Of a stretch of 64,000 bases of DNA, positions 6,050 to 41,598 are shown piece after piece. Under the pieces are notes generated by a model, which saw only the letters and a program-made list of their open reading frames with translations, was not told the DNA's origin and did no database searches. Position 1 is the first letter of the stretch; every line of letters starts with the position of its first letter. The stretch comes from Nocardioides sp. (GTDB lineage: Bacteria; Actinomycetota; Actinomycetes; Propionibacteriales; Nocardioidaceae). Where the stretch lies: NCBI GenBank assembly GCA_051306135.1, contig JBPPMQ010000158.1, forward strand, positions 429 through 64,428. Direction: 5' to 3'. The position numbers and the translations under genes were made by a program.

Positions 6050-7300
6050 TCAGCGAGTATGGCCAGACCCCATCACGACGTACTTGGTCGAGGTCATCTC
6101 CGGTAGCCCCATGGGGCCGCGCGCGTGGAGTTTCTGGGTGCTGATGCCGATCTCCGCGCCGAAGCCGAACTCGCCGCCGTCGGTGAATCGCGTGCTGGCG
6201 TTGACCATCACCGCGGCGCTGTCGACCTGGGCGGTGAACGCCGCGGCCGCAGCGATGTCGTTGGTTACGATCGCCTCGGTATGCCCCGATGACCAGCGCC
6301 GGATGTGGGTCACCGCGGCGTCGAGGTCCTCAACGACCGCAGCGCTGATCTCCAGGGCCAGGAACTCCGCACCCCAGTCCTCCTCAGATGCCGGACGCAC
6401 CCCGTCGAACCGGGCGAAGTCGTCGTCGCCGTGGATGACTACCCCGGCCTCTTGCAACGCTTGAGTGACTCGTGGCACAAACGCATCCGCGACCTCGCGG
6501 TGCACCAGCAGCGACTCCGCCGCGTTGCACACCGAGGTGCGGTCGGTCTTGGAGTTCATCACGATCGCCAGAGCCATGTCGAGGTCTGCGGCCGCGTCGA
6601 CATACACGTGGCAGTTGCCGACTCCAGTCTCGATGACGGGCACCACCGACTCGGTGACCACGGAGTTGATCAGCCCAGCGCCCCCGCGCGGGATGAGGAC
6701 GTCGACCAGGCCTCGGGCCCGCATCAGTGCCTTGACCGAGTCGTGGGTCTCGCCTGGCACCAACTGGATGACGTCGGCCGGCAATCCTGCGGTGGCGACC
6801 GCCTCGCGCAGCCCAGCAACGATGGCGGCGTTGGAGTCACGGGCGCTGGAGGATCCGCGCAGCAGCACGGCGTTGCCCGACTTCAGGCAGATGCCGGCCG
6901 CGTCTGCGGTCACATTCGGCCTGGCCTCATAGATCATCCCGACGACACCGAACGGCACGCGGATCTGGCGCAGTTGGAGCCCGTTGGCCAACGTCGAACC
7001 GCGGACCACCTCGCCGATCGGGTCAGGCAGCCCGGCGACCTCCCGCAAGCCGGCGGCCATCGCGTCGAGTCGGTCGGTGGTCAGCCTCAGCCGGTCGACG
7101 ATGTTGGCCGGCGTACCACAGGATTCAGCGCGGGCGATGTCGGTGGCGTTGGCTGCCAGGATCGCGGCCGCCCCAGCAGTCAGGCTCCTCGCCATCGCCT
7201 CCAGGGCAGCGTCCTTAACCGCCCTGGTGGCGCCGGCCAGTTCATAGCTGGCCTCCCGCGCTCGACCCGCTGCCGCCCGCACGTCACTTTCGATGCTCAC
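6050..7300 (-). CDS. proA: Glutamate-5-semialdehyde dehydrogenase (gamma-glutamyl phosphate reductase)
   Basis: 416 aa with full-length ProA-like sequence ([39 protein letters not shown]). Confidence 0.95.
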
Positions 7301-7327
7301 GGGCCAAGGATATTCGCCCCTGCCCAG

Positions 7328-7471
7328 TCACTGACCGTGTCGTCGTCGCTTCGGACAAATCACTGACGTTGTGGCTCCCCACACCCCAATCACTGACGTT
7401 GTGGCTCCCCGCACCCCAATCACTGACGTTGTGGTCGTGATTTGGCGAAATTGGAGCAACAACGTCAGTGA
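7328..7471. repeat. Motif array A: a degenerate copy at 7328, three direct copies of TCACTGACGTTGTGG (7360, 7390, 7420; 30-bp period), a loop, then one inverted copy (7456-7471)
   Basis: Read directly. The 30-bp units are AATCACTGACGTTGTGGCTCCCC(A/G)CACCCC. The last copy forms a ~55-bp palindrome with CAACAACGTCAGTGA. Confidence 0.9.
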
Positions 7472-7513
7472 CCACCGCTAGCTCAAGCTCGCTGGGCGCT
7501 GGGCGCTGAGTTC

Positions 7514-7547
7514 GGGGATCCGGGGTCACGCGGCGCGCCGGATCCCC
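7514..7547 (-). terminator. GC-rich hairpin downstream of the 7557-8597 gene
   Basis: GGGGATCCGG...CCGGATCCCC forms a 10-bp perfect stem. There is no U-tract. Confidence 0.4.
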
Positions 7548-7556
7548 ACAGAACCG

Positions 7557-8597
7557 TCAGCCAGCCCGCCGGATCCAGATCGGCCGAAGCTGGGGGTCGA
7601 CCGCTCGTCGAGCCGAGACGGTGGTGGTGTCCGGCCAGGAGGCCGGCCGGGTGGTGGTCCACGTCCTCTGTGCTGTGCCTGGTCGATTCCGTGCACGGCG
7701 ATATGCCGAGGCGAGTCGCTGCTGAAAGTTGCGAACGTCGTGGCCGTCGGTCGCCATCATCGTCACCAACTCGATGTCGTGGTCGCGGTAGATCGCTTCC
7801 CGATCAAGGTCGCGACGGCGGGTGCGATCCTGGAGATGGAGGGCCCCGTCGTACTCACCGGCCACCCCGGCCGCCGAATCGAGAAGATCGGGGGTGAGAA
7901 GGTGGTTGCCGTGCAGGTCGAAGATTGGCACGTTCGTCAGCGGTCGCGGGAACCCAGACATCACCTGCCACACCAGACGCATCGAGGACTCCGGCGGAGA
8001 CCAGACGTTTTCGTCCGCGAGCACAATGGCCCGCCAGAACTTGGGAACCTTGCGCCGAGCGGTCAGATGCAATGAGGCGTACGCCGCCAACTCCTCGAGC
8101 GAGCAAAGGTCGGCCGAGCATGCCGTGTCGATCGCCCGGACGGCCTCAAACAGCGATGTGGCGTGGCGTGCCTCGAAGCACAGTGCGCGCTCAGCTCGGG
8201 TGATTCCGATGCCATCGACCACGGTGAGATCCCCCGCCGCCAGCCATTCTTCCGATATCCGCAGCCCTGGCTGGGGTCGCATGTTCCGGTTGTGGCCGAC
8301 GGCGATCGGAATCGGGGCATGGGCTGTGGTGGTGCCGCGGGGGCCGTTGGACCACCGGTCGCCCAACCATGACAACGCGGCCCATCCGGCAATTCCCGCC
8401 TCCGCGGGCATGGCCGCCGCCGCCTCGGCGATCCGCTGCTGGAGGCTGTGGCCATCGACTGCGGCCGGGACGTAGAGCCCTCGCGACGTTCGACGCCAGT
8501 TCGGCCCGCGAGCCTGGGCAAAGGTGGGGCCACCGGAATGGCCGTCGCCAACTGGCGCCACGATTCCGCGGCGGGTGGCAGCGTGGTGCGGGGTCAT
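7557..8597 (-). CDS. Hypothetical protein with a C-terminal DUF559/Vsr-like (PD-(D/E)XK-type) endonuclease-like domain
   Basis: SPPESSMRLVW...GFPRPLTNVPIFDLHGNHLLTPDLLD..AGVAGEYDGALHLQDRTRRRDLDREAIYRDHDIELVTM matches the actinobacterial DUF559 pattern as recalled. The N-terminal WRRTSRGLYVP is AbiEi/wHTH-like. The start was chosen at ATG 8597; the ORF is open to 8729. Confidence 0.6.
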   Translation of the reverse strand: MTPHHAATRRGIVAPVGDGHSGGPTFAQARGPNWRRTSRGLYVPAAVDGHSLQQRIAEAAAAMPAEAGIAGWAALSWLGDRWSNGPRGTTTAHAPIPIAVGHNRNMRPQPGLRISEEWLAAGDLTVVDGIGITRAERALCFEARHATSLFEAVRAIDTACSADLCSLEELAAYASLHLTARRKVPKFWRAIVLADENVWSPPESSMRLVWQVMSGFPRPLTNVPIFDLHGNHLLTPDLLDSAAGVAGEYDGALHLQDRTRRRDLDREAIYRDHDIELVTMMATDGHDVRNFQQRLASAYRRARNRPGTAQRTWTTTRPASWPDTTTVSARRAVDPQLRPIWIRRAG

Positions 8598-8743
8598 GCA
8601 CCGAATCCTCGAGCCACCGGCCGACATCGTGCTTCGGAGCGGCGGTTTGTGCACAGGCTGGCGACGACGCGCGCGCCCCTGTGTATGACGAAAGGCCCGG
8701 GAGGACGGCATACGACGTCCTGGGCCCATCGCGAAAGCTCAGG

Positions 8744-8855
8744 TCACTGACGTTGTCGTCGTGATTTCCGGAATCGGCAACCACAACGTCAGTGACTGGG
8801 CGTCAGGCGACCACAACGTCAGTGACTGGGCGTCAGGCAACCACAACGTCAGTGA
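8744..8855. repeat. Motif array B, the mirror image of array A: one direct copy, a loop, then three inverted copies CCACAACGTCAGTGA (8781, 8811, 8841; 30-bp period)
   Basis: Read directly. The palindrome is TCACTGACGTTGTCGTCGTGATTTCCGGAATCGGCAACCACAACGTCAGTGA, followed by 30-bp units with the locus-specific spacer CTGGGCGTCAGGC(G/A)A. Confidence 0.9.
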
Positions 8856-8878
8856 CTAGAGGGGGGCGCCACGACGGC

Positions 8879-9829
8879 TCACTTGCGCTTGGTGATCTCC
8901 TCGGTCAGCGCCGGGAGCACCGCGTGCAGGTCACCGACCACCCCGAAGTCGACCAACTCGAAGATCGGGGCTTCTTCGTCCTTGTTGACGGCCACGATGG
9001 TCTTCGAGGTCTGCATCCCCGCACGGTGCTGGATGGCACCGGAGATGCCGTTGGCAACGTAGAGCTGAGGGGAAACCGTCTTACCGGTCTGCCCGACCTG
9101 GAAGGTGTGCGGCTTCCATCCAGAGTCGACCGCGGCACGGGACGCACCCACAGCAGCACCGAGGGAGTCGGCCAATGCCTCGACCGCAGAGAAGTCGCCG
9201 CCGGTGCCGCGACCACCGGAGACCACGATGGCGGCCTCGGTGAGCTCGGGACGGCCGGTCGACTGCCGCGGCTGAGCGGCCACGATCTGGGCGGTCTTGG
9301 CGGCGTCGGAGACGGTCACCGCAACCGATACCGTCTCGCCGGCGCCGGTGGCCTCTTCCGGGGAGGCGGCGTTGGGCTTGACGGTGATGATCGGGGTGCC
9401 CTTGGTGACCTTCGACTTGGTGGTGTAGTTGCCCGCGAAGACCGACTGGGTGGCGGTGCCGTCGGCGTCGAGATCGACAGCGTCAGTGATCAGGCCGGAC
9501 TCCAGTTTGATGGCCAGACGCCCGGCGATCTCCTTGCCCTCACCCGAAGAGGTGATCAGGATGGCGGCCGGAGAGGCCTGGGCGGCAACCTGGGCCAGAG
9601 CCTCGGCCTTCGGAGCAACCAGGTAACCCTTGATCTCGGCGTCATCGATGACGTAGACCTTCTCGGCACCGAACTTCTTCACCGACTCCACGGCACCGTC
9701 GACCTGGTCGGCCGCACCGATGAACACCGCCGCCGGGGTGCCCAGACGCTTGGCCACCGTCAGCATTTCGTAGGTCGGCTTGCGGACTGCTCCGCCAACA
9801 TGGTCGACAAGAACTAACACTTCAGACAT
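8879..9829 (-). CDS. etfA: Electron transfer flavoprotein subunit alpha
   Basis: [10 protein letters not shown]... with the C-terminal FAD-binding pattern (VSGGRG...[12 protein letters not shown]...QVGQTGK.V.P.LY...[11 protein letters not shown]). The upstream extension of the ORF is Pro/Arg-rich junk. Confidence 0.93.
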
Positions 9830-30043: not shown

Positions 30044-30059
30044 GCCTGCGGTGCCGCCA

Positions 30060-30103
30060 CTGCGCCGCCTCTGCGCCACCACTGCGCCACCACTGCGCCA
30101 CCG
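30060..30103. repeat. Four tandem 11-bp units (CTGCGCCACCA-like)
   Basis: Read directly. It lies immediately downstream of the Nudix stop and upstream of array C. Confidence 0.8.
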
Positions 30104-30109
30104 GCCCAA

Positions 30110-30264
30110 TCACTGACGCTGTGGTCGCCCGACAGCCGCCGCCGGCCCAATCACTGACGCTGTGGTCGCCCGACAGCCGCCACCGGCCCAATCACTGACG
30201 CTGTGGTCGCCATTTGGCGATATGACGACCACACCGTCAGTGATTGAGGCGCAAACGTCAGTGA
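30110..30264. repeat. Motif array C: three direct copies of TCACTGACGCTGTGGTCG (30110, 30151, 30192; 41-bp period), a loop, then two inverted copies (30226-30243 and 30251-30264)
   Basis: Read directly. It belongs to the same motif family as arrays A and B and sits between the convergent Nudix and EamA genes. Confidence 0.9.
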
Positions 30265-34970: not shown

Positions 34971-34981
34971 CCCAACCCAAC

Positions 34982-35036
34982 GCACCTGACGTTCTGGTCG
35001 GATTTCCGCCGAAATATCGACCAAAACGTCAGGTGC
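34982..35036. repeat. Single long palindrome of the same motif family (GCACCTGACGTTCTGGTCG-N17-CGACCAAAACGTCAGGTGC)
   Basis: 18 of 19 arm positions pair. The loop GATTTCCGCCGAAATAT is itself partly palindromic. It lies between the mce stop and the ccr start. Confidence 0.9.
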
Positions 35037-35058
35037 GATGACTTAACAGGAGCACTCC

Positions 35059-41479: not shown

Positions 41480-41598
41480 CCGGCCCGCCGAGTGGAAGGT
41501 CCCGGCCCGCCGAGTGGAAGGTCCCGGCCCGCCGAGTGGCGCGAACTGGCGGGCGCGGGGCCACGGGGTTCCACTCGCGGGGCCACGGGGTTCCACTC
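41480..41598. repeat. Second repeat family: about 2.7 direct 22-bp units (CCGGCCCGCCGAGTGGAAGGTC), a spacer, then two inverted 22-bp units (GGGGCCACGGGGTTCCACTCGC)
   Basis: Read directly. The shared core is GAGTGGAA / TTCCACTC. The array overlaps the hbd stop codon. Confidence 0.9.

What the first reader, a model, noticed from the sequence alone, without database searches (positions are those of the whole stretch)
7328..8855. A 1.5-kb cassette: a DUF559/Vsr-like nuclease-domain gene bracketed by mirror-image arrays of a 15-nt motif, resembling transposon ends
Left end: one degenerate copy plus three direct copies of TCACTGACGTTGTGG at an exact 30-bp period, then a ~55-bp palindrome.
Right end: the reverse arrangement, a palindrome followed by three inverted copies at the same 30-bp period.
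- The two ends are therefore terminal inverted repeats of about 110-145 bp, each with several phased copies of one short site.
- This resembles multi-site transposon ends such as Tn7 and Mu more than simple REP hairpins.
- The only cargo is a ~346-aa protein with an N-terminal wHTH-like segment and a C-terminal PD-(D/E)XK-type (DUF559) domain. That fold is the one used by TnsA.
- The cassette sits between proA and etfA, two unrelated housekeeping units, and array A starts only 28 bp from the proA start codon.
This may be an undescribed nuclease-borne mobile or selfish element. Alternatively the protein may bind the repeats.
Basis: partly seen in the sequence, partly recalled or inferred. Interest (0 to 1): 0.7.

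Follow-up and report, generated by a model that had tools for sequence, protein, structure and literature searches.

The report
Palindrome-bracketed nuclease gene family in Nocardioides
The repeats are real. They mark one member of a large, undescribed Nocardioides family in which a gene for a DNA-binding nuclease is nearly always bracketed by two copies of its own 62-base palindrome, an arrangement that looks like the known REPIN-RAYT partnership but uses a different kind of enzyme.

Summary
The gene at 7557-8597 (minus strand) is flanked by mirror arrays of TCACTGACGTTGTGG at a 30-bp period, and each array ends in a palindrome.

This is neither a one-off nor a chance REP neighbour:
- In 80 homologous loci from Nocardioidaceae genomes, 81% share at least five 11-mers between the two gene flanks, against 3.6% of shifted controls.
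- The shared element has a fixed geometry of 23-bp arms and a 16-nt spacer, 62 nt in all, with strong covariation.
- Its sequence is specific to each lineage, and the two flanks of one gene match each other.
- Solo copies also occur, including two in this window.
- A covariance model built only from other genomes recovers all the window's palindromes.

The genes sit in conserved syntenic slots, are under purifying selection, and were found on no plasmid or phage. The protein has an AbiEi-like half and a Vsr/DUF559-like nuclease fold with invariant acidic and histidine residues, and matches no Pfam family.

My best reading is that the protein recognises the 23-bp arms and cuts at the palindromes, so maintaining and occasionally copying them. 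That would be a REPIN-RAYT-like or IS/MITE-like partnership with a non-HUH enzyme. Binding and cleavage are inferred, not shown.

The parts
7328..7342 (+). Outermost degenerate arm copy (TCACTGACCGTGTCG, 3 mismatches), 27 nt from the proA start codon
7358..7434 (+). Tandem array of three exact arm copies at a 30-bp period (23-nt arm plus 7-nt linker). It lies downstream of the gene on the proA side.
   Evidence: TRF 2.6 copies, 97% matches
7415..7476 (.). Gene-downstream palindrome element (core 7420-7471). It is a member of the family-wide 62-nt palindrome class.
   Evidence: DNA fold z = -4.6; model R1, 28 bits, E 2.5e-5; not in the training set
7516..7555 (.). Separate GC-rich palindrome directly after the stop codon, possibly a terminator. 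It is not part of the repeat family.
   Evidence: I13
7557..8597 (-). Gene for a 346-aa protein (356 aa if it starts at 8627). It has an AbiEi-like N-terminal half and a Vsr/DUF559-like PD-(D/E)XK C-terminal domain with invariant D237, D240, E248, H254, D263 and R266.
8739..8800 (.). Gene-upstream palindrome element (core 8744-8795)
   Evidence: z = -4.3; R1, 39 bits, E 2.7e-8
8776..8857 (-). Tandem array of three inverted arm copies at a 30-bp period, on the etfA side. The weak inverted-repeat match runs out to 8868.
30096..30264 (.). Solo element of the same class with no gene: three arms (TCACTGACGCTGTGG) at a 41-bp period, a palindrome at 30185-30250, and one further inverted arm. It lies between convergent NUDIX and EamA genes.
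   Evidence: R1, 45 bits, E 6e-10
34976..35042 (.). Solo 62-nt palindrome of a second class (CGCACCTGACGTT...). It fills an 88-bp gap between two co-directional genes.
   Evidence: (R1, 63 bits, E 8.5e-15)

Best explanation
The cassette is one member of a Nocardioidaceae-wide family of chromosomal modules. Each module is a gene for a two-part protein bracketed by two copies of a cognate 62-nt palindrome. The protein has an AbiEi-like DNA-binding half and a Vsr/DUF559-like PD-(D/E)XK nuclease half. The palindrome has 23-bp arms and a 16-nt spacer, and the same palindromes also occur as solo copies in intergenic DNA. In this organism the 23-nt arm has additionally been multiplied in tandem (arm plus 7-nt linker = 30 bp), which gives the mirror arrays.

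Proposed mechanism, all inferred:
- One protein monomer binds each 23-bp arm, as AbiEi does on its 23-3-23 operator.
- The nuclease domains cut at or next to the palindrome.
- Repair or re-joining then keeps all copies in a genome matched to the protein and occasionally creates or removes copies.

This would be a REPIN-RAYT-like (or IS plus MITE-like) partnership that uses a non-HUH enzyme.

Shown here: the gene-palindrome association, the fixed geometry, the matching specific to each lineage and paralogue, the solo copies, vertical inheritance, purifying selection, and the fold.
Inferred: binding, cleavage and mobilisation.
For: Association with the gene:
- 81% of 75 homologous loci share at least five 11-mers between the two gene flanks, against 3.6% of 276 shifted controls.
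- Palindromes were called on both sides in 72 of 80 loci.
- The upstream and downstream copies of one locus are 84% identical (median). Copies from different loci are 61% identical, with a 95th percentile of 74%.
- Paralogues within one genome carry different palindrome classes.

Geometry and covariation:
- Pairing runs sharply from 9 to 31 nt either side of the centre.
- 93.5% of cells are paired, against 59.5% when shuffled and 32-42% when the partner is slid. There are 640 double-sided changes against 199.
- G-T cells make up only about 2.4%. That points to a constraint at the DNA level rather than on an RNA.

Held-out tests with model R1:
- R1 was built from other genomes and finds all three TCACTGACG palindromes in the window plus a fourth of another class.
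- R1 also finds 5 of 6 gene flanks in a subfamily only 36% identical to the window protein.

Solo copies:
- About 10 solo sites were found in 793 kb of flanking DNA, and 2 in the 64-kb window.
- One orthologous site is occupied in L007 and L022 but empty in L048.
- At that site the arms match the host genome's own gene-flanking copies (0.85-1.0), while the loop matches the orthologue (0.83-0.89).

Inheritance and selection:
- At least 7 syntenic slots are shared across species, although the proteins are only 50-70% identical.
- dN/dS is 0.12-0.39.
- No match was found in plasmids, phages or IMG/VR.

Protein:
- Foldseek against BFVD puts DUF559 and Vsr endonucleases on top (probability about 1.0, best E 2.9e-3).
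- Foldseek against PDB returns I-Bth0305I, PvuRts1I and AbaSI.
- PADLOC AbiEi models match residues 95-177 at E 5.6e-6.
- hhalign to an AbiEi_4/AbiEi_1-type neighbour gene gives probability 93%, E 3e-7.
- AbiEi binds two 23-bp inverted repeats, and the authors predict one monomer per repeat (PMC3985639).
Against: - No binding or cleavage data exist.
- All structure matches have E above 1e-3, and no Pfam or NCBIfam model matches.
- Solo copies are sparse in the DNA I could sample, about 1 per 30-160 kb, far fewer than classical REPIN populations. No whole-genome census was possible.
- The relative orientation of the two flanking palindromes is mixed: 26 direct, 21 inverted, 20 tied.
- Only one presence/absence polymorphism of a solo copy was found, and its boundaries are blurred by divergence.
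- No target-site duplication is visible around the cassette.
- The covariation comes from hairpins that were selected as the best hairpins, which inflates the percentage paired.
Confidence: 0.55

Rival explanations
1. Regulatory reading. The protein is an AbiEi-type autoregulator. The upstream palindrome is its operator, the downstream one is a terminator, and solo copies are further operator or decoy sites. No DNA is mobilised.
For: - The N-terminal half is AbiEi-like.
- AbiEi and Rv2827c bind inverted repeats in their own promoters (PMC3985639, PMC7319586).
- The upstream palindrome lies 45-130 bp before the start codon in most loci.
- Arm length is 23 bp, the same as the AbiEi operator half-site.
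Against: - The same palindrome also lies downstream of the gene in about 90% of loci.
- The nuclease-type residues are invariant and the gene is under purifying selection.
- Operators of a regulon would be expected to stay conserved. Here the arms diverge quickly between species while staying matched within a genome.
- A solo copy shows presence/absence polymorphism.
- Solo copies sit between unrelated housekeeping genes.
Confidence: 0.2
2. The whole 1.5-kb unit is an autonomous transposon whose nuclease acts on multi-site terminal inverted repeats, as at Tn7 or Mu ends.
For: - The window has mirror arrays with 3-4 phased sites per end.
- The cassette is absent from the etfA-proA gap of Nocardioides sp. 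CPCC 205120.
- Proteins that are 72-75% identical and carry the same palindrome class lie in different chromosomal slots, for example L051 and L053. So the unit has moved or been duplicated together with its palindromes.
Against: - Orthologues stay in the same slot across many species while diverging to 50-65% identity.
- Paralogues within a genome are divergent, not near-identical copies.
- The family is absent from plasmids, phages and IMG/VR.
- There is no DDE, TnsB or TnsC partner gene.
- Multi-site ends occur in only 2 of 80 relatives.
- No target-site duplication is seen.
Confidence: 0.15
3. Defence or toxin-antitoxin reading. The gene is an AbiE-like or restriction-like defence gene, and the palindromes are incidental.
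For: - PADLOC AbiEi models match weakly.
- The Vsr-like nuclease fold is shared with the restriction enzymes PvuRts1I and AbaSI.
Against: - No AbiEii (DUF1814) partner lies next to the gene in the window.
- The neighbours are housekeeping genes in the three slots examined, with no defence-island context.
- This reading does not explain the matched palindromes on both flanks.
Confidence: 0.05
4. Chance reading. An ordinary REP/BIME-type repeat family happens to lie next to a resident gene.
For: Solo copies exist without the gene (30096-30264 and 34976-35042).
Against: - Palindromes with at least 20 of 23 pairs at the fixed geometry number 81 within about 56 kb of gene flanks. Only 5 occur in 800 kb elsewhere, and none in shuffles.
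- 81% of loci pass the shared 11-mer test, against 3.6% of controls.
- Paralogues in one genome have distinct, self-matched classes.
Confidence: 0.02

Closest known systems
REPIN-RAYT systems (REP-associated tyrosine transposases of Proteobacteria)
   Same: - The gene is flanked by its own palindromic repeat.
- Each gene type is paired with its own repeat type.
- There is one divergent copy per type in a genome.
- Inheritance is vertical and chromosomal.
- Solo repeats are dispersed in intergenic DNA.
- Gene and repeat appear to co-evolve (PMC3337134).
   Different: - The enzyme is not an HUH/Y1 transposase. It is an AbiEi-like plus Vsr/DUF559-like PD-(D/E)XK protein of about 346 aa.
- The repeat is a single 62-nt palindrome with 23-bp arms, not a doublet of short REP hairpins.
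- Solo copies appear far less numerous.
- The host group is Actinomycetota (Nocardioidaceae).
AbiEi antitoxins / COG5340 regulators (S. agalactiae AbiEi, M. tuberculosis Rv2827c)
   Same: The N-terminal half is homologous (PADLOC E 5.6e-6; hhalign 93%). AbiEi binds 23-bp inverted repeats, and the authors predict one monomer per repeat (PMC3985639, PMC7319586). The arm length here is also 23 bp.
   Different: - No AbiEii nucleotidyltransferase partner is present.
- A nuclease domain is fused to the C-terminus.
- The spacer is 16 nt rather than 3.
- The repeat lies on both sides of the gene and elsewhere in the genome.
DUF559 / Vsr-like endonucleases, including the homing endonuclease I-Bth0305I
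   Same: The C-terminal domain has the same fold. The PD...E-x-DG..H...D..R pattern that I recall for DUF559 is invariant in the family.
   Different: - The protein scores below every Pfam threshold. The best relative reaches DUF559 at E 0.095.
- There is no intron or intein context.
- No mismatch-repair context or partner methyltransferase was seen.
Tn7 ends with TnsA
   Same: TnsA has a PD-(D/E)XK fold. Each end in this window carries several phased sites.
   Different: - The module has a single gene, with no TnsB, TnsC or TnsD.
- Multi-site ends are rare in the family.
- Orthologues are syntenic across species.
IS elements with derived MITEs
   Same: A solo 23-16-23 palindrome has the layout of two terminal inverted repeats brought together. 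The gene-carrying unit has changed slot a few times.
   Different: - Each gene end carries a complete palindrome, not a single terminal repeat.
- No target-site duplication was detected.
- There are no multiple identical gene copies in a genome.

Membership tests
REPIN-RAYT | The gene encodes an HUH/Y1 (IS200-like) transposase | tested here: not met
   No Pfam or NCBIfam hit. The fold is PD-(D/E)XK / Vsr-like.
REPIN-RAYT | The gene is flanked by its cognate palindromic repeats | tested here: met
   81% of loci against 3.6% of controls. Upstream and downstream copies are 84% identical (median).
REPIN-RAYT | Each gene type has its own repeat type, with one divergent copy per type in a genome | tested here: met
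   Six same-genome paralogue pairs have distinct classes. Cross-identity is 0.62-0.78, against 0.78-1.0 within a locus.
REPIN-RAYT | Vertical inheritance, with no plasmid or phage carriage | tested here: met
   Syntenic slots. No hits in plasmids, phages or IMG/VR.
REPIN-RAYT | A large dispersed population of repeats (tens to hundreds per genome) | tested here: inconclusive
   Solo copies occur at about 1 per 30-160 kb in the sampled DNA. No whole genome was available.
DUF559 (PF04480) / Vsr | Match to the Pfam model above its gathering score | tested here: not met
   No hit at E up to 5 for 22 members. P0377 reaches only E 0.095.
DUF559 (PF04480) / Vsr | Vsr-like PD-(D/E)XK fold | tested here: inconclusive
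   BFVD top hits are DUF559 and Vsr endonucleases (probability 0.98-1.0, E at best 2.9e-3, TM normalised to target up to 0.65). PDB returns 3r3p, 4oq2 and 4par at E 0.07-0.5. The hits agree in kind, but none passes E below 1e-3.
AbiE type IV toxin-antitoxin | AbiEi-like wHTH plus C-terminal domain | tested here: met
   PADLOC AbiEi at E 5.6e-6 on residues 95-177. hhalign to an AbiEi_4/AbiEi_1-type protein gives probability 93%. The wHTH part itself is not matched directly.
AbiE type IV toxin-antitoxin | Adjacent AbiEii (DUF1814) nucleotidyltransferase toxin | tested here: not met
   The window neighbours are proA and etfA. The neighbours examined in L007, L009 and L206-L209 are also unrelated genes.
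Tn7-like transposon | TnsA together with TnsB (DDE) and TnsC | tested here: not met
   There is a single ORF between the arrays. Both flanking genes are housekeeping genes.
Tn7-like transposon | Several phased transposase-binding sites in each end | tested here: inconclusive
   Present in the window and minimally in L063 and L064. Absent in the other relatives.
IS / MITE | Target-site duplication and an empty site in close relatives | tested here: inconclusive
   An empty etfA-proA gap exists in L202, but only at about 80% ProA identity. No duplication is visible at 7315 or 8868.

The most novel reading that the evidence does not exclude
A second, independently evolved 'resident enzyme plus palindrome population' system. 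An AbiEi-Vsr fusion nuclease uses PD-(D/E)XK chemistry to copy, delete or homogenise a population of 62-nt palindromes. It would have persisted by vertical descent through the Nocardioidaceae radiation, as a mechanistic counterpart of REPIN-RAYT in Actinomycetota.
Probability: 0.35. Interest if true: 0.85.

Novelty: new variant of a known kind. Interest (0 to 1): 0.72.

Why it matters
REPIN-RAYT is so far the main model for a long-lived, vertically inherited partnership between a domesticated DNA enzyme and a population of short palindromes. All known examples use HUH/Y1 transposases in Proteobacteria.

A family with the same genomic logic but an unrelated restriction-endonuclease-fold enzyme, in Actinomycetota, would show that this lifestyle evolved more than once.

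It would also give DUF559-like and AbiEi-fused proteins, a very common class of 'hypothetical' genes in actinobacteria, a concrete and testable substrate: a 23-bp arm whose sequence can be read directly next to each gene. The dozens of natural protein-site pairs amount to a ready-made specificity table.

On the practical side, these palindromes probably break short-read assemblies of Nocardioides genomes.

Tried and rejected
- **Searching the exact window motif in the 80 homologous loci.** It is absent, because the palindrome sequence is lineage-specific. De novo repeat detection was needed.
- **Sequence searches against PDB, with a single sequence and with profiles.** Nothing useful.
- **Pfam and NCBIfam.** No family.
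- **PHROGs.** No match.
- **Rfam.** Only one tRNA in the window. The palindromes match no known RNA family, and the scarcity of G-T pairs argues against an RNA structure.
- **A fixed inverted orientation of the two flanking palindromes.** I suspected this from the TAGTCC/TACTCC asymmetry in several loci. The orientation turned out to be mixed across loci, so I dropped the idea.
- **Integron attC cassette.** Rejected because the cargo is always the same gene family and the two sites match each other.
- **Promoter and terminator scan of 7200-9000.** No promoter-like site, and the only two terminator-like matches lie inside etfA, at the rate shuffles give. Not informative for a high-GC actinobacterium.
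- **Literature searches.** No description of this association in the papers held.
Full report
**1. The observation**

Reading 7000-9200, the repeat finder, the motif search and Tandem Repeats Finder all confirm the anatomy.

- On the + strand there is a degenerate copy at 7328, then exact TCACTGACGTTGTGG at 7360, 7390 and 7420.
- An inverted copy at 7457-7471 forms a 52-nt palindrome with the third direct copy.
- The mirror image lies at 8744-8855.
- The two ends are 114-nt inverted repeats at 74% complementarity.
- With up to 3 mismatches the 15-mer occurs 18 times in the window. Shuffles give 2.3 on average and at most 6.
- The hairpins are much more stable than shuffles (z = -4.3 to -7.7).
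- The ORF is 7557-8597 on the minus strand.
- The neighbours are proA and etfA.
- Two independent Logan assemblies carry the same cassette.
- The window is from a soil-metagenome contig of a Nocardioides-like organism. Its nearest ProA relatives are about 80% identical.

**2. The motif also occurs without the gene**

A third array lies at 30096-30264, between convergent NUDIX and EamA genes. It has three arms at a 41-bp period, a palindrome, and one further inverted arm. Taken alone, this would favour an ordinary REP-type reading.

**3. The gene's relatives change the picture**

- The protein has more than 1000 relatives at about 50% identity, essentially all from Nocardioides or Nocardioidaceae, and none has a precomputed Pfam domain.
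- I fetched 80 genomic loci. None lies next to proA or etfA, and none contains the window's 15-mer near the gene.
- De novo analysis nevertheless showed that the two flanks of the gene share long matches in most loci.
- Inspection showed a palindrome of about 62 nt on each side. It differs between genomes but is nearly identical on the two sides of one gene.

Quantitatively:
- 81% of 75 loci share at least five 11-mers across the gene, against 3.6% of 276 controls shifted by 3-4.5 kb.
- Upstream and downstream copies of one locus are 84% identical (median), against 61% for copies from different loci.
- Palindromes with at least 20 of 23 pairs at the fixed geometry number 81 at gene flanks. Only 5 occur in 800 kb elsewhere, and none in shuffles.

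**4. The element**

- Profiles anchored on the centre show pairing from 9 to 31 nt either side of the centre with a sharp outer edge. That is 23-bp arms, a 16-nt spacer, and 62 nt in all.
- An essentially ungapped alignment of 91 copies gives the consensus GGTAGTCCCnGACGT....GTCG / CGAC....ACGTCnGGGACTACC.
- All 23 pairs show double-sided changes. 93.5% of cells are paired, against 59.5% when shuffled and 32-42% when the partner is slid.
- G-T cells are only about 2.4% of the total. The constraint is therefore on DNA symmetry, not on an RNA helix.
- Caveat: the copies were chosen as the best hairpins, which inflates the percentage paired.
- Classes differ in the outer arm: G(G/A)TAGTCC..., CGTCGTACC..., CGCACCTGAC..., CGTCGTCACAT.... 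The window's (A/G)GTCACTGACGTT is close to the first class.

A covariance model (R1) built only from other genomes gave two held-out tests:
- It recovers the three window palindromes at E 2.5e-5 to 6e-10. It also finds a fourth, of the CGCACCTGACG class, at 34976-35042.
- It finds 5 of 6 gene flanks in a subfamily only 36% identical to the window protein.

**5. Evolutionary behaviour**

- Flanking genes are conserved between many loci even where the proteins are only 50-65% identical. Single-linkage clustering gives at least 7 slots shared across species.
- One slot lies between a GMC oxidoreductase and guaA. Another lies between a pstB-like ATPase and a PHO4 transporter.
- Palindrome class largely follows slot and protein clade.
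- Paralogues within a genome have different classes.
- Proteins 72-75% identical, with the same palindrome class, occur in different slots (L051 and L053). So gene and palindromes have occasionally moved or been duplicated together.
- In the window the unit fills an etfA-proA gap that is 160 bp and empty in Nocardioides sp. CPCC 205120. Two other relatives hold unrelated genes there.
- dN/dS is 0.12-0.39.
- There are no hits in plasmids, phages or IMG/VR.

**6. Solo copies**

- BLAST with each locus's own palindrome finds about 10 solo sites in 793 kb. They are full-length elements.
- At one orthologous site, L007 and L022 are occupied and L048 is empty.
- In that pair the arms of each solo copy match the gene-flanking arms of its own genome (0.85-1.0) better than they match the orthologous solo copy (0.74). 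The loop does the opposite: 0.83-0.89 to the orthologue against 0.22-0.39 to its own genome.
- This is a single example. It is what one expects if the arms are kept matched to a genome-specific recognising protein.

**7. The protein**

- The AlphaFold2 model is confident (pLDDT 87.7).
- The C-terminal domain resembles Vsr-type PD-(D/E)XK nucleases. PDB returns I-Bth0305I, PvuRts1I and AbaSI. The BFVD top hits are named DUF559 or Vsr endonuclease, with probability about 1.0 and best E 2.9e-3.
- No hit passes E below 1e-3, and Pfam does not match. So this is a resemblance of fold, not membership of the family.
- D237, D240, E248, H254, D263 and R266 are invariant in 22 of 22 sequences. From memory, they form the PD...ExDG..H...D..R pattern of DUF559.
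- The N-terminal half matches PADLOC AbiEi models (E 5.6e-6). It also aligns to an AbiEi_4/AbiEi_1-type neighbour gene in L208 (hhalign probability 93%).
- AbiEi binds two 23-bp inverted repeats spaced by 3 bp, and the authors predict one monomer per repeat (PMC3985639). [quoted passage not shown]
- A profile search finds 1849 cluster representatives at E up to 1e-3.

**8. The arrays**

- Each 30-bp unit is one 23-nt arm plus a 7-nt linker. The solo array uses an 18-nt linker.
- Among the 80 relatives, only L063 has one extra outer arm on both sides, again at 30 bp. L064 has one extra arm at 32 bp.

**9. Interpretation**

The data fit a cognate pair of protein and palindrome. The best-supported mechanism is recognition of each arm by the AbiEi-like half and cleavage by the Vsr-like half, which would maintain and occasionally copy the palindromes. 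In genomic logic this parallels REPIN-RAYT: a flanked, single-copy, vertically inherited gene with type-specific repeats (PMC3337134). It fails the defining enzyme test for that family.

- A purely regulatory role is the main rival.
- An autonomous Tn7-like transposon is less likely.
- Chance association is excluded.

I found no description of this association in the literature held.

Noticed in passing
window 34976-35042: A fourth 62-nt palindrome, of a different class (CGCACCTGACGTTCTGGTCG...), fills the 88-bp gap between two co-directional genes. It suggests that this genome holds a second paralogue of the nuclease family outside the window.
   Followed up: partly
window 41480-41598: An unrelated intergenic element with a similar layout: three direct 22-bp units (CCGGCCCGCCGAGTGGAAGGTC) followed by two inverted-type 22-bp units (CGCGGGGCCACGGGGTTCCACT). 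The arms are 71% complementary over 41 nt.
   Followed up: partly
window 30053-30102: An 11-bp tandem repeat (GCCACCACTGC, 4.5 copies) directly abuts the solo arm array.
   Followed up: no
L208 9044-9946: Directly upstream of the family gene lies a 300-aa gene with weak AbiEi_4/AbiEi_1 Pfam hits. It is homologous to the family (hhalign probability 93%) but lacks the EYDG nuclease motif. It may be a degenerate paralogue or a partner.
   Followed up: partly
L009 5748-5787, L013 5792-5830, L016 5773-5813, L047 5862-5907: Loci in the GMC-oxidoreductase/guaA slot share another conserved hairpin (TCAGGGCCCGGCC - ccctccctcccc - GGCCGGGCCCTGA) 70-190 bp upstream of the gene. In L009, L013 and L016 this hairpin, not a family palindrome, was the strongest hairpin call upstream.
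   Followed up: no
L050 7116-7225; L072 7113-7163: Short tandem repeats (22-bp units in L050, 14-bp units in L072) begin right at the outer edge of the downstream palindrome. The palindrome boundary may be prone to local duplication.
   Followed up: no
L001-L080, outer arms: The commonest arm class starts with G(G/A)TAGTCC, which contains GTAG. From memory, GTAG is the tetranucleotide conserved at the 5' end of proteobacterial REP sequences. This may be coincidence.
   Followed up: no
window 7483-7510 compared with L205: The short GCGCCCA repeat just downstream of the gene has one more unit in the Logan contig L205 than in the window. This is a small copy-number polymorphism between samples.
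   Followed up: no
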